Assembly (NCBI GenBank): GCA_951406725.2
Contig: OX597817.1
Span: 140,492,001 to 140,556,000 of the forward strand
Direction: 5' to 3'
Origin: Octopus vulgaris
Taxonomy: Eukaryota
DNA length: 64,000 bases
Shown here: positions 14,061 to 63,211 of the stretch, piece after piece
How the letters are laid out: each line of letters begins with the position of its first letter
How positions within the stretch are numbered: the stretch's first letter is position 1
Program-made: the position numbers and the translations under genes
Notes under the pieces: generated by a model
Told to the model about the DNA's origin: nothing
What the model saw: only the letters and a program-made list of their open reading frames with translations
The model's database searches: none

Positions 14061-14252
14061 AGAGTTAACGAAACAAACAAAAGACGAAGGCAGGTGGTGT
14101 ACAAAACAAACAGATGTATTAGTATAACGCTCAGGAATAGAAAAAGTCTTTTACGTTTCGAGCCTACGCTCTTCTACAGAAAGGGACACAGAAAAAAACA
14201 AGGAGAGAAACAAAAAGGAGAGAAAAAAGACAGAAAAAAGGAGAGAAAAAAA
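14061..14252 (-). mobile_element. Dispersed ~160-bp module with a minimal HHR-like motif (14148-14183)
   Basis: Minus strand CTTT-CTGTAGAA-GAGC GTAG GCTC-GAAAC-GTA-AAAG; six copies in the window; abuts (TA)n(GA)n. Confidence 0.75.
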
Positions 14253-14934
14253 TATATATATACATAGTCAAAATGATGGTACCCCGGAGCTCTCGAGATT
14301 AAATTGGAAAAGAAAATATATGTATGTGTGTGTGTGTGTGTGTGTATGAATATATTCTATTTAGTCACACGTACCGAGTAGCTTGTCTATATTTTTCTTG
14401 GTGCAGATTGCACTCGAAGAAAGAGAAAAAGAATTTTAATTATTCGTTGTCACATATTTGCAATAGTGAGAAGAAATGTAGCAATGTGATGAAGATCCAT
14501 CATAATTATTAATTAAATATGTCGCATATGTTGCAGGAGAATATATAAATATATTGTAGACAGGAACATATTTAACGTGGTGCCGTGAAACGCACCAATC
14601 AAAAAGAAATAATGAAAACCTAATTTCCAACATTAATAAAACACAGAACAAACTGTGAAAATTAACGTTTTCGTTCTTTAATATTGCAACATTTCATATA
14701 TATTTTTCTGTATGTGTGTGGGAGCTATATGGAATAGAACACACACACACACACACACACACACACACACACACACACACACACACACACACACATTTAT
14801 ATAATATATATACATATTTAAATGCATATGTTTTTGTGGAGGGTAGATGGACATACACACACATATGTCTGTGAGTGTGTATTTCTATAAATGTATATGC
14901 ATGTCTATATAGTTATACATACATACATTATACA

Positions 14935-15432
14935 TGCATACACACACGCACACACGTGTTTATGCATGTATGTATATTTATATACACATAAGTAAATATA
15001 AATGTATACGTGTATGCACGGATACATGTATGTGTGTTATATACGTTTTTATATATGTGTATGTGTGTATATATATATATATATACACGCATATGTATAT
15101 GTATTTATGTATATGTATCCATATATCTATATGTATGTATATATATATATGCATATATCTATATATATATATATGCATATATCTATATATGTATATGCAT
15201 ATATCTATATGTATGTATATATATATATATATATATATATATATATATATATATATATATATATATATATATATATATATATATATATATCTATATATAT
15301 ATATATATATGTATATATATATATATATATATATATATATATATATATATATATATATATATATATAGTGTATATGCATATATCTATATATGTATATGCA
15401 TATATCTATATATATATATATATATATATACA
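14935..15432. repeat. Degenerate (TA)n/(TATG)n low-complexity tract
   Basis: Directly visible; accounts for the IYIY-type ORFs. Confidence 0.95.
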
Positions 15433-15784
15433 CAGTCAGATTCATATGGCTGTGTGGATGTATCTTTATAGTAGTCAAACACGCTTCTACAAAATTGATT
15501 AAGCTAAGTTCATCATGTGACCGTTAGTTATTTACAATATTTTATGCCTGTGCATGTCTCCATACTTTTTATAGAGTGGACGAAACCGTTGATTGCCTGG
15601 CTTCTGCTTTATTAATTCCGCAGTTAATGGAATCTCTCGTCTCACATATTTGATAAATAATGCAATTAGTGAGCGGTTGATATGACGAGAGAACTATATT
15701 GCTATGTGGCTATGAAGTAAGACATGAGAATAAGATGTCAAATCAAGAAGAAATGTCGATAGTTGATTACTCCTGCCGCCAGTA

Positions 15785-16066
15785 CAGTAGAATTTCGGTT
15801 TACGAACGCCTCACATCACGAACAAACCGGTTTATGAAGGATTACGGCGTCGCACGTTACGAATACGCAAACCGGTAACAATGACTGGCAACCAGCTGGA
15901 AATATCAACGGGAGAGCGTCGGCTGCTGTTTAGTTTTTGTTCAGTGCACATCACGGCTCAAATTCACCGTGTCTTCTCTTAAATTTCCTATGGTTTCGGT
16001 TTACGAACATTTCGGGTGACGAACTGCTTTCAGGAACGAATTAAATTCGTAACAGAGGTTCCACTG
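15785..16066. mobile_element. Tc1/pogo (Tigger-like) MITE
   Basis: TA|CAGTAGAA...TTCCACTG|TA termini with TA target duplication; repeated subterminal GGTTTACGAAC motifs; non-coding. Confidence 0.75.
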
Positions 16067-60203: not shown

Positions 60204-60360
60204 ATGGCTGTGTGGTGGCTAAGAAGTCTGCTGCGCAAACACGAGATTTTGAGATCGATGCTACTGCCTGAGATCCTGAGCAAGAATTCTATGGTCTCAG
60301 ATCGACCAAAAGCTTGTCAGGGAAATCTGGTTGAGGGAAACTGCTTGGATTCTTGTCGAA
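60204..60360 (+). mobile_element. Highly decayed family D SINE head
   Basis: ATGGCTGTGTGG...AAGAAG, CGACCAAAAGCTTGT, GGAAACTG blocks. Confidence 0.5.
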
Positions 60361-61120
60361 GGTTTCCATTGGTGTCTTTTGAATGATGTACACAATCCAT
60401 CGCCTGTTTCACACCACATTATGGTCCTTGGGTATCTTTCACCGAATCTGCACTGTTGCAAACATTTGGTGCAAGATTTTCAACACTGGCATAACAAGGG
60501 TTCTCAGCACACGCGGAGAGTGACTGCTTTTCTGCCTCAATTTAATTAACGTACATGATAAACAAAATGAAATTTTGCACCTGGAGATGGCTGGCCCCTC
60601 TCTTTCTTTTGCTATGGATGAGGAACCTGAAATGAGTTATGTACGTGGTCTTGGTTGCCATATAAACCAGTGGAAAAAATTGAGAAAAGGTATGTTAAAC
60701 AATGTTAGGTGGAACATACGGACATATCAAAAAGGGTTAGTAAAAGAATATTAAAAAGAAGCGGAAAAGAAAAGGGGTAGAAATCGAAGGGTATGTGAGA
60801 AGAAGAAGAAGAAGAAGAAGAAGGCGACGACGACATGTACAAAAAGAAAATTTACATCTACGACAGCCACCTGAATATTAACAGAAAGACAAGAAAACAA
60901 TAGTTACAATAATATTAAAAATATATAACCAGCAATAAATAAATAAAATAAACATGTTCAACACCCCTACCGTCGCCATTATTACTGAAGACACCAACGA
61001 GAAGTTTAATGGATAATGACAGCAACAAGAACAATAACAACAATGAAAACAGCTACTACAAAAACACTAATAAAAGCAGCACCACTAACAAGAACAACGA
61101 CAAGCAGAAACGACTTGCTT

Positions 61121-61155
61121 GCTCACCGTAACTTGTTTAGTAACAAAATGGCGGC
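61121..61155 (-). promoter_or_regulatory. YY1-type motif next to a minus-strand splice donor (possible first non-coding exon)
   Basis: CAAAATGGCGGC at 61144-61155; minus-strand ACG|GTGAGC with the intron starting at 61126. Confidence 0.3.
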
Positions 61156-63040
61156 TATGTGTTGGTGTTGATTTCGATGCATGTGTAAAGATGAAGTTTC
61201 TAGGATCTACGTTTATGTTAGTAAACATTGCATTTGAAAATTGAATTAATGAGCGTTAATTACTTGTGTTAATCAATGCAATCTCACTTTAATGTGTTCC
61301 GTATTGCCATTAATGGAATATTTCACAGCAGTGAAATCCCAATTATTGAGTAAAGATTATTTTTAAAAGGTACATTTATCAATATCAATTTTTATCTGAT
61401 ACATGCGCACTCACACACACACAAATACACACACGCACACGCAATCAAACTTATATGAATATATACACATATATAAAAAATATATTTACACACACACACA
61501 CACACACATATATATATACAAACGAATATATGTGTGTGTGTGTGTGTGTGTGTACTCACATAACTAAACTCATATGTGTGTGTGTATGTGTGTATGCAAA
61601 TTTCCATAGAAATTTATAGAAATTTATAAATATATACTTATATATGTATATTCTTATATACATATAAAATATATAGATACATACATACATGCATACATTT
61701 ATAGATATATACATACATATATATTGATATGTACATATACATACTTACATACACACACACACGTATATATATATATATATATATATATATATATATATAT
61801 ATATATATATATATATATATATATATATATATATATATATATATATATATATATATATATATATATATAAACATGTACATACACACTAATACAGAGATAG
61901 AGAGATGGAGAGAGGCAAAACTTAGAAAAATAATAATATTGGCATCAACTTTAATTCTGATATATCATTATATTTAATATATGTTTCGTTGTTGTTGTTT
62001 GTGTTTTTTTTTTGTCTTATTTTTAACATTTTATTAAATTTCAACATATTTATATTTATTATTTAGTCACATCAATATCAATGTTTTGCTATAACAGATC
62101 TTTTTTAATCCGTATTGATTTCCTATAAATATAGTGCCAGAGAAGAAATATACCAGAGTGATGCTTATGCATTCCGAAGTGTATTAGCTGTGGAACTTGA
62201 AGGAAATTGGCTTCAATCGAGTTAAAGCGAACGTAACCCTTTAATCCTCGGAATTTTTTCCTCCCCCTAATATCCGCATCTCGTATCAATTGTATTTTGG
62301 GTGAACGCAGTTACTTTTTATGCAGATGGTGGCTTTTCTCCATTGAACAGAGTCAAATATTTTACTGGAACTAGTTTCCTTTTTTATATTTCTTGGTCTC
62401 ATTACATTTCGATTATTAACAACTTCACTCCTTGTTTTTCATGCAGAAAGCATACCTAGGTACTTTAGTCTCAGGCATTATCTTATGTTATCACATTATT
62501 TATTGTACATTAATTCACTCCAAATCTCTCGCTTTCTCCTCTCTTCCCCCCTCTCTTTCTCTCTCTCTCTCTTTGTGTGTATTTATGTATATATTTATGT
62601 AAGGGCGTATCTATCACAACATGATGGAAAGACAATGCCACATTTTATCTACTGCATCATGCAACTCCAACAATCGATTCTATTAAGTAAGCATGTTCTA
62701 GACATTTGCCTCGATACATACATGTGTGAGTGCGTCTTGGTGTGTGTGTGTGTGTTGTTTTAATTTTCACTTTTCTATTCTTTGCGTAGGTCAGATGGAA
62801 TTGGTAAAGGCAGAGTTTTTCAGCCAGATGGCCTTCTTGTCGCCAATTTTCACTTGTTTCAAAGCAGAGTAACATTTCGCAACGGTCCGTTGTCGTGTGA
62901 TGTCAAAACACAAGAAGACACATACACGGACGGACACACACACACACACACACACACACACACACACACACACTCATACACACAAATACTCATATATATA
63001 TATATATATATATATATATATATATATATATATATATATA

Positions 63041-63211
63041 GGGAAAGTTTACGAAAAAAACCAAAGACAAAGACAGGTGGTGTACAAAACAAACAGATGT
63101 ATTAGTATAACGCTCAGGAATAGAAAAAATATTTTACGTTTCGAGCCTATGCTCTTCTACAGAAAGGAACACAGAAAAACAACAAGGAGAGAAAAAAATG
63201 TGTGTAGTGGC
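63041..63211 (-). mobile_element. Dispersed ~160-bp module with HHR-like motif
   Basis: Same family as 14061; abuts (TA)n; followed by a decayed family D SINE fragment (about 63215-63370). Confidence 0.75.

What the first reader, a model, noticed from the sequence alone, without database searches (positions are those of the whole stretch)
14061..63211. Six copies in 64 kb of a ~160-bp microsatellite-anchored module with a conserved non-canonical minimal hammerhead
Seen: copies at 1750, 14061, 26904, 39752, 47008 and 63041. All five complete ones keep CUUU-CUGUAGAA-GAGC-NNNN-GCUC-GAAAC-GUA-AAA(G/U): short stem I, 4-bp stem II whose loop varies (GUAG, GUAA, AUAG) while the stem does not, and a loopless AC/GU stem III. 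The end 3' of the motif abuts (TA)n, (GA)n or (GATA)n in every copy. No tRNA head, TIRs or ORF. Established: loopless palindromic stem III is typical of PLE minimal HHRs, thought to cleave as dimers; A6 of CUGANGA is normally invariant. Inference: a very high-copy non-autonomous PLE derivative targeting TA-rich microsatellites, with a fixed A6U change that is either a new functional variant or shows that cleavage is dispensable for spread.
Basis: partly seen in the sequence, partly recalled or inferred. Interest (0 to 1): 0.7.

Follow-up and report, generated by a model that had tools for sequence, protein, structure and literature searches.

The report
Penelope-type hammerhead variant, fixed A6U
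A very abundant 165-base jumping-gene fragment that inserts into (TA)n repeats carries a tiny self-cutting-RNA motif of a known kind, but with one normally fixed letter changed throughout the family; whether it still cuts is untested.

Summary
There are six copies (five complete, 92-99% alike), and 6 of 6 end within 10 nt of a microsatellite (background 2.6% per side). The motif fits the published minimal hammerhead of Penelope-like elements (PLEs) in every feature except A6, which is U. Public contigs show a very large family (17,451 contigs laid in one run). No other letter reaches 3% at position 6 in any run, while N7, the free core position, varies (C and U, 5-8% each). U6 is therefore family-wide, with suggestive (p 0.02-0.14) hammerhead-shaped constraint. 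One fish-like contig has an independent U6 motif. Best reading: short run-off insertions of a PLE terminal repeat, primed on nicked (TA)n and copied from uncut RNA, with a weakened but still constrained hammerhead. No autonomous partner was found, so 'non-autonomous family' is unproven. That cleavage is dispensable for insertion is already published in vitro, and U6 does not show it. High-copy PLE hammerhead ends are known. A fixed A6U was not found in my searches, but the key 2017 variant survey could not be read.

The parts
47016..47176 (+). Complete module copy (reference); (TA)15 upstream after 8 extra nt, (CT)n(TA)n downstream
47055..47096 (+). Minimal type I hammerhead variant: stem I 47055-56+47059-62 / 47091-96 with CC bulge; C3 47063, U6 47066, N7 47067, extra A 47070; stem II 47071-74/47079-82; G12 47083; loopless palindromic stem III 47086-89; predicted cut after A17 at 47090
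   Evidence: numbering by comparison with PMC4209133 Fig. S3 consensus
14061..14253 (-). Complete copy; 5' pyrimidine tract repeated three times; C3 at 14179; (TA)n at the 5' side, (CT)n(TA)n at the 3' side
26904..27071 (-). Complete copy; 5' tract duplicated; C3 at 27022; 3' end runs into (TATC)n 26668-26906
39752..39894 (-). Complete copy with the shortest 5' end; C3 at 39864; (TA)n on both sides
63041..63211 (-). Complete copy; C3 at 63162; same 5' start as the 47k copy; sits at the first TA of the internal (TA)n(TG)n tract of an older repeat
1750..1841 (-). Truncated copy: stem II 3' strand, GAAA and stem III remnant, an internal deletion, then the 3' tail ending at (TA)n 1713-1749
63212..63378 (-). 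Older SINE-like repeat (73% alike to copies at 33.3k, 38.5k and 56.0k) that serves as the insertion site of the 63k copy

Best explanation
The module is the hammerhead-bearing terminal repeat (pLTR) segment of a Penelope-like retroelement that targets (TA)n, amplified as short solo insertions. Likely cycle: (1) a PLE RT/GIY-YIG protein, in cis or in trans, binds an RNA carrying this segment [inferred]; (2) it nicks an existing (TA)n tract [the target bias is shown; the nicking is inferred]; (3) reverse transcription starts at a fixed internal site about 86-92 nt downstream of the hammerhead cut site, which gives the common 3' end [the fixed end is shown; the mechanism is by analogy to PAc]; (4) it copies through the uncut hammerhead [shown: copies keep both halves] and runs off or stalls in the U-rich tract 30-50 nt upstream of C3, sometimes re-copying that tract [the duplications are shown; the cause is inferred]. 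U6 arose in the source lineage before the subfamilies split. The fold stayed under some constraint, most likely as a slow, protein-assisted or purely structural hammerhead rather than an efficient ribozyme [inferred].
For: Every feature of the published PLE min-HHR consensus is met except A6. 6/6 3' ends lie at microsatellites, and 4/5 complete copies have one on both sides. The 63k site lies in a tract that 4 of the 6 displayed copies of the host repeat also carry. Loose ends in two runs show the 3' end followed by (TA)n (11 and 34 contigs). 17,451, 3,073 and 5,753 contigs were laid. No letter reaches 3% at U6, while N7 reads C at 5.5/6.0/6.1% and U at 5.2/8.1/6.8%. The single contig of organism E also keeps U6. 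Divergent contigs begin to align at 47058, where the core-proximal 4 bp of stem I start (189, 32 and 113 contigs). PAc geometry: cut at +26 and RT start at +111-118, i.e. 85-92 nt (PMC11167929), against 86-92 nt here. (TA)n bias is documented for Neptune, Naiad and Hydra PLEs, including Octopus families (PMC8557442). Other (TA)n-anchored fold-back insertions with hammerhead motifs lie in the same window.
Against: No RT/GIY-YIG partner is linked: Pfam found only LINE-type RT/APE and a mariner HTH in 150 of 223 screened frames, and 10 of 11 module motifs are absent from the Naiad/Chlamys/Hydra consensus files. No tandem or inverted copies of this family were seen (0 of 6; no head-to-tail joint). 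The constraint statistics are weak and partly post hoc (Fisher p 0.024-0.142). G47094>T (6-13%) breaks a stem I pair, two free positions (9.1 and 17) do not vary, and no compensatory pair could be verified. Monomers fold no better than shuffles (z -0.53, +0.99, -1.50). The double-hammerhead dimer scores -8.5 kcal/mol against -20.4 for an inactive duplex. Single changes in the CUGA turn lower activity in vitro (PMC9901934).
Confidence: 0.62

Rival explanations
1. Same PLE origin and mechanism, but the hammerhead is dead. A6U was frozen by a founder source gene and spread because cleavage is not needed; the N7 variants are chance subfamily markers.
For: A6 changes cut activity sharply: A6C gave kobs 3.55e-6 vs 0.3 per min in 0.3 mM Mg2+ (PMC7151607), and CUGA-turn single mutants have low activity (PMC9901934). 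HHR-dead PAc RNA inserts normally in vitro. Naiads spread without canonical HHRs. No place was found where many molecules begin at the cut site (table 6). The copies are young and alike, so a few source genes could explain the uniformity.
Against: The only non-CpG core position that varies is N7, with two different transversions in all three deep runs. Only 2 of 28 constrained non-CpG positions vary, against 8 of 25 free or tail positions (p=0.024). There is an independent U6 motif with a 6-bp stem I in a fish-like contig. One contig has a deletion ending exactly at the predicted cut (47035 to 47091; a single contig, weak).
Confidence: 0.25
2. U6 was selected because it creates a splice acceptor. 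U6-A7-G8 forms a YAG after a 50-nt AG-free, 90% pyrimidine tract, so splicing of a pLTR intron would remove the 5' half of the ribozyme from the mRNA, while unspliced RNA is the template that gets inserted.
For: Sequence anatomy. PLE pLTRs hold introns, and in D. virilis the intron ends at helix I (PMC4209133).
Against: The N7=C and N7=U subfamilies and the fish-like copy keep U6 but lack that AG. A U-rich 5' flank is generic for PLE hammerheads. No junction at 47068/47069 is among the joints or best-supported loose ends shown (323 loose ends were not shown).
Confidence: 0.06
3. Not PLE-derived: an unclassified SINE, retrozyme monomer or other short repeat whose hammerhead likeness is inherited or accidental and whose microsatellite is its own tail.
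For: No PLE ORF is linked; Rfam gives no hammerhead hit; dispersed retrozyme monomers exist (bioRxiv 10.64898/2026.07.22.740005).
Against: Descriptor hits are about 100-fold above shuffles. Microsatellites lie on both sides and differ in unit between copies. No tRNA gene was found and no tandem arrays were seen. Three other repeat families in the window abut microsatellites at only 5 of 36 BLAST-hit ends.
Confidence: 0.07

Closest known systems
Minimal hammerheads (min-HHR) in pLTRs of metazoan Penelope-like elements (Cervera and De la Pena 2014, PMC4209133)
   Same: Type I topology, short stem I, an extra nucleotide between 9 and 10.1, G10.1-C11.1, loopless palindromic 15.2-16.2, U-rich 5' flank, and mostly dispersed single motifs. 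The Acropora digitifera Neptune motif in Fig. S3 has nearly the same 4-bp stem II and C-G-U stem III.
   Different: U at position 6; all 56 motifs of Fig. S3 have A6, though the authors note that their search imposed the catalytic boxes. The reported families hold tens to thousands of motifs; this one appears far larger.
PAc (Poseidon element of Anolis carolinensis; Frangieh et al. 2024, PMC11167929)
   Same: The insertion end lies about 85-92 nt downstream of the hammerhead cut site; targets are AT-rich; uncut RNA is the main template.
   Different: PAc has a canonical core and an ORF starting at stem II; this module has no ATG there and no linked ORF.
(TA)n-targeting Hydra, Neptune and Naiad PLEs, incl. 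Hydra-1_Obim and Naiad_Obim/Ovul (Craig et al. 2021, PMC8557442)
   Same: Insertion into (TA)n; the hammerhead lies about 100-200 nt from the 3' end in Hydra elements.
   Different: Hydra hammerheads have a 3-4 bp looped stem III and A6 (34 of 34 rows in File S2 have A6); Naiads lack canonical hammerheads; the module's motifs are absent from these consensus files.
Natural A6C hammerhead of phage Bcep176 (PMC3088659, PMC7151607)
   Same: A natural substitution at core position 6.
   Different: A single bacteriophage ribozyme with C, slow in Mg2+ and rescued by Mn2+; here it is U, in a minimal dimer-type motif, fixed in a very large animal repeat family.
Non-LTR retrozymes (PMC7229834; bioRxiv 10.64898/2026.07.22.740005)
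   Same: Short, non-coding, hammerhead-bearing repeats proposed to derive from PLE pLTRs.
   Different: Retrozymes are defined by tandem units, mostly with canonical type I hammerheads; this family is dispersed, solo and microsatellite-anchored.

Membership tests
PLE minimal hammerhead (min-HHR) | Core CUGANGA with A at position 6 | tested here: not met
   U6 in 5 of 5 window copies; no other letter reaches 3% in three deep runs. Filed as a variant, not as a canonical member.
PLE minimal hammerhead (min-HHR) | C3-G8, A9, an extra nucleotide before 10.1, G10.1-C11.1, GAAA | tested here: met
   consensus
PLE minimal hammerhead (min-HHR) | Loopless or tiny palindromic stem III, U16.1-H17, stem I of 3 bp or more | tested here: met
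   AC/GU, A17, stem I 4 bp in 4 copies and 3 bp in the 63k copy
PLE minimal hammerhead (min-HHR) | Compensatory stem changes across families | tested here: inconclusive
   The variant table gives no linkage; free vs constrained positions p=0.044-0.095
PLE minimal hammerhead (min-HHR) | Self-cleavage as a dimer | not testable with these tools
   Needs an assay; nearest-neighbour energies disfavour the active dimer but omit tertiary contacts
Penelope-like element (EN+) | RT + GIY-YIG ORF closed by this repeat | tested here: inconclusive
   None in 150 of 223 screened frames of the window; no genome held; not in the Naiad/Chlamys/Hydra consensus files; Neptune and Poseidon consensuses were not available
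Penelope-like element (EN+) | Fixed 3' end downstream of the hammerhead, variable 5' end, AT-rich or (TA)n target | tested here: met
Penelope-like element (EN+) | Partial-tandem or inverted pLTR arrangements | tested here: inconclusive
   0 of 6 copies of this family and no head-to-tail joint (contigs drop rare forms); seen for other hammerhead families in the window
Naiad clade (described Octopus families) | Sequence identity with Naiad_Obim/Ovul/Omin ends | tested here: not met
   10 of 11 short module motifs absent from the supplement; one 9-mer hit in unrelated sequence; line breaks can hide a motif
Non-LTR retrozyme | Tandem units each with a hammerhead | tested here: not met
   No tandem array of the module in the window; no end-to-start joint
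tRNA- or 5S-derived SINE | Pol III RNA head | tested here: not met
   0 tRNA genes; the only Rfam hit is a 5S copy unrelated to this module; degenerate A/B boxes were not scored
MITE / DNA transposon | Terminal inverted repeats | tested here: not met
   Ends read directly show none; none among the 25 longest of 190 inverted pairs shown

The most novel reading that the evidence does not exclude
CUGUNGA is a selected, working class of PLE hammerhead, perhaps switched on only by the element's protein or by a different metal ion. It recurs in distant animals (this cephalopod-like genome and a fish-like contig) and is invisible to every CUGANGA descriptor. One of the largest ribozyme families in this genome, on the order of 100,000 copies, would then have been missed, and PLE clades reported to lack hammerheads would need a re-scan with an open position 6.
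Probability: 0.28. Interest if true: 0.68.

Novelty: new variant of a known kind. Interest (0 to 1): 0.42.

Why it matters
What PLE hammerheads do is an open question (PMC8557442 calls it unclear; PMC11167929 finds cleavage protein-assisted and not needed for insertion in vitro). A huge natural family that has swapped a conserved core base while keeping the rest of the fold is a ready test case. If it cleaves, the hammerhead consensus and current censuses are too narrow. If it does not, yet stays constrained, the fold has a non-catalytic role such as protein binding. The fixed 3' end and clustered 5' ends also offer in-genome support for internal initiation of reverse transcription outside the one element tested so far.

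Tried and rejected
Whole-genome BLAST: no genome is held, so copy number rests on window density and laid contigs. Rfam: no hammerhead model matches. Folding energy as evidence: monomers are not better than shuffles, so it was not used in support. Viral contigs: 0 matches to the open-position-6 pattern. Bacterial and archaeal genomes: 4 matches, none with a stem I of 3 bp or more (0, 0, 0 and 2 bp); judged chance, and used as the control for L001. The A6 control for L001 in metagenome contigs was not run, so L001 may be one decayed copy of a canonical fish family. Naiad origin: rejected for the described families. Depth profile as proof of hammerhead conservation or of copy number: confounded by contig fragmentation, edge effects and a private 2-nt deletion in the reference, so not used as a measurement. 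Expression: X12 is only guessed to be RNA and X20 gave one contig, so no claim of transcription is made. Variant calls were visible only for about 47057-47130, so the last 46 nt and the 5' 40 nt of the module were not compared. Earlier scan notes: none by sequence or in this genome. Literature searches for an A6U natural variant found none. Lunse et al. 2017 (about 150,000 PLE hammerhead variants, figure recalled) is not held and may already contain it. The supplement of PMC13282606 was listed but not read.
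Full report
OBSERVATION. The window is animal-type DNA, 37% GC and 8% microsatellite. Its SINE-like repeats look octopod to me; that label is recalled and comes from no call. The motif search found five intact motifs with C3 at 14179, 27022, 39864, 63162 (all minus strand) and 47063 (plus). 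BLAST with the 47k copy recovers these and a truncated, internally deleted copy at 1750-1841. The five complete copies are 92-99% alike. A structure descriptor that leaves position 6 open returns exactly these five, against 1 hit in 30 shuffles. All six 3' ends lie within 10 nt of a microsatellite, where a random non-repeat base has p=0.026; three other repeat families do so at 5 of 36 hit ends. ARAGORN finds no tRNA gene, and Rfam has no hammerhead match.

ANATOMY. In the 47k copy the hammerhead spans 47055-47096. Stem I has 4 bp plus 2 bp beyond a CC bulge. The core is C3 U4 G5 U6 A7 G8 A9 with an extra A, followed by a 4-bp stem II closed by G10.1-C11.1, GAAA, a loopless palindromic AC/GU stem III and A17; the predicted cut is after 47090. 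This matches the published PLE consensus (U-rich, CUGANGAH, G...C, GAAAN palindrome NUH, AU-rich; PMC4209133 Fig. S3) at every point except position 6. All 56 motifs in that figure and all 34 rows of File S2 of PMC8557442 have A6, but those searches favoured the canonical boxes. The 3' end is fixed, 86-92 nt past the cut site. The 5' ends fall 30-50 nt upstream of C3 once the tract duplications are set aside: two copies start at the same base, and two carry duplications of the pyrimidine tract. Four of five complete copies have microsatellite on both sides. The 63k copy lies at the first TA of a (TA)n(TG)n tract that 4 of the 6 displayed copies of its host repeat also carry. The microsatellite is therefore the target, not a tail.

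FAMILY SCALE. Twenty of 24 listed runs hold the stretch, under five organism labels. I laid four runs at 80% likeness, listing differences from 3%: 17,451, 3,073, 5,753 and 1 contigs were laid. The tool warns that depth is not copy number. Five complete copies per 64 kb would extrapolate to about 200,000 in a 2.8-Gb genome, if the window is typical and the host is as recalled; I claim only tens of thousands or more. No letter reaches 3% at U6 in any run, and the single contig of organism E keeps it. N7 reads C at 5.5/6.0/6.1% and U at 5.2/8.1/6.8%. The other variation in the motif is CpG decay (including G12 at 2-5%), the bulge, loop II, one stem II base in one run, and G47094>T at 6-13%, which breaks a stem I pair unless linked to a change at 47057 (linkage not visible). 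Counting non-CpG positions, 3 of 7 free, 2 of 28 constrained and 5 of 18 tail positions vary in at least one run. Fisher p is 0.044 (free vs constrained) and 0.024 (free plus tail), weakening to 0.073-0.142 if two or three runs are required. The bulge was assigned after seeing the table, and depth-weighted contigs are not independent lineages, so this is suggestive only. Divergent contigs begin to align at 47058, where the core-proximal part of stem I starts (189, 32 and 113 contigs). Loose ends show the 3' end running into (TA)n, and back-jumps duplicate the 5' tract in three runs. No head-to-tail joint and no pile of ends at the cut site was seen. One contig joins 47035 to 47091, exactly at the predicted cut, which is a weak hint.

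OUTSIDE THE FAMILY. A U6 pattern in metagenome contigs gave 1 match, in a 4.7-kb contig that reads like fish genomic DNA (L001; 'fish' is my reading of the sequence). It has core CUGUGGA, the same stem II, C17 and a 6-bp stem I that was not in the pattern. Four matches in prokaryotic genomes have stems I of 0, 0, 0 and 2 bp, and viral contigs gave none. L001 is thus a real PLE-type motif, but as a single copy it may be a decayed member of an A6 family; the canonical control in that collection was not run. No partner was found: Pfam shows only LINE-type RT/endonuclease and a mariner HTH in 150 of 223 screened frames, and 10 of 11 module motifs are absent from the Naiad/Chlamys/Hydra consensus files.

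MECHANISM. For the Anolis element PAc, reverse transcription starts inside the RNA 111-118 nt into the ORF, the hammerhead cuts at +26, targets are AT-rich, the ribozyme needs the protein, and cleavage-dead RNA inserts normally (PMC11167929). The implied 85-92 nt spacing equals the 86-92 nt seen here; the clades may differ, so this could be coincidence. I infer that a PLE protein nicks (TA)n, starts at the fixed internal site, copies through the uncut hammerhead and ends near the RNA's 5' end, giving solo modules. Whether the RNA comes from an autonomous element's upstream repeat or from short non-autonomous copies cannot be told. The window holds similar products from other families. One is a head-to-head pair of an A6, Hydra-type hammerhead module around a 5S rRNA copy, (TA)n-anchored at both ends (58771-59247). 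Another is a perfect 160-nt fold-back at 49210-49587. The A6 family is also inserted uncut, so U6 is not needed to explain intact hammerheads.

IS U6 ACTIVE? Against: A6C lowers the rate by about five orders of magnitude in 0.3 mM Mg2+ in one ribozyme, though Mn2+ rescues it (PMC7151607). Single mutants in the CUGA turn have low activity (PMC9901934). Monomers fold no better than shuffles, and the active dimer scores -8.5 against -20.4 kcal/mol for an inactive duplex. For: N7 is free while its neighbours are fixed, U6 is shared across subfamilies and organism labels, and L001 exists. I put a still-constrained fold at about 0.6-0.65, a frozen dead relic at 0.25, and measurable cleavage at about 0.35-0.4.

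WHAT IS KNOWN. PLE minimal hammerheads, their dispersal as single motifs, dimer cleavage, (TA)n targeting and Octopus PLE families are all published. Earlier scan notes describe several other genomes with very high copy numbers (unchecked). Six searches found no natural A6U family; Lunse et al. 2017, the most likely place, is not held. Papers seen: PMC4209133 (parts 1-2 of 4; supplement parts 1-2 of 3); PMC11167929 and PMC7151607 (parts 1-2 of 4 each); PMC8557442 (passages, section 15, supplement parts 1-2 of 59 and motif searches); bioRxiv 10.64898/2026.07.22.740005 (part 1 of 5 and passages); PMC13282606 (part 1 of 3 and passages, with no mention of hammerheads or ribozymes in the main text; supplement not read); passages only of PMC3088659, PMC6765202, PMC9901934, PMC7229834, PMC8782182, PMC11014351 and PMC10085705.

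VERDICT. A real and well-spotted feature, and a new variant of a known kind: it works like a PLE terminal-repeat insertion and fails canonical min-HHR membership at A6 alone. Interest 0.42; 0.68 if U6 proves to be a working, recurrent hammerhead class (probability about 0.28).

Noticed in passing
window 58738-59304: A head-to-head pair of a second 175-bp hammerhead module (canonical A6; looped near-palindromic stem III as in Hydra-clade PLEs; arms 94% alike) encloses a full 5S rRNA copy (58934-59052, Rfam 98.7 bits) with a trailer ending in a T run; (TA)n lies at both outer ends. A 7-nt microhomology joins the module's 5' end to the 5S 5' end. This suggests a PLE reverse transcriptase jumped onto 5S RNA and then folded back.
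   Followed up: partly
window 49210-49587: Perfect (100%) 160-nt inverted arms, 58 nt apart, between (TA)n tracts, with a roughly 55-nt extension on one side only. The right arm has a hammerhead-like motif with C at position 9 (C3 at 49427). It looks like a very young PLE fold-back insertion with a one-sided tail.
   Followed up: partly
window 59305-59411, 48095-48299, 27180-27296: Further degraded fold-back palindromes (78-82% complementary) beside microsatellites, possibly ends of other PLE families.
   Followed up: no
window 46880-46977: Directly upstream of the 47k copy, a canonical CUGAUGA-A-GG core is cut off by the (TA)15 tract; a similar core is at 49064 (minus). These may be remnants of other hammerhead families.
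   Followed up: partly
window 2119-5096: Nearly intact LINE (APE endonuclease 2119-2967, RT 2913-5093, one frameshift) starting right after (TA)15; RT fragments of another LINE at 28502-29435 and a mariner HTH at 35998-36279.
   Followed up: partly
L001 2440-2510 (minus strand): A single minimal hammerhead with U6, N7=G and a 6-bp stem I in a contig from a metagenome collection that reads like fish genomic DNA.
   Followed up: partly
window 47016-47068: A 50-nt AG-free, pyrimidine-rich tract ends in U6-A7-G8, a strong-looking 3' splice acceptor; sense copies inside host introns could be exonised.
   Followed up: no
window 31676-32043 and 43336-43702: A 185-bp SINE-like unit in tandem duplicate, and a 20-bp minisatellite of about 18 copies.
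   Followed up: no
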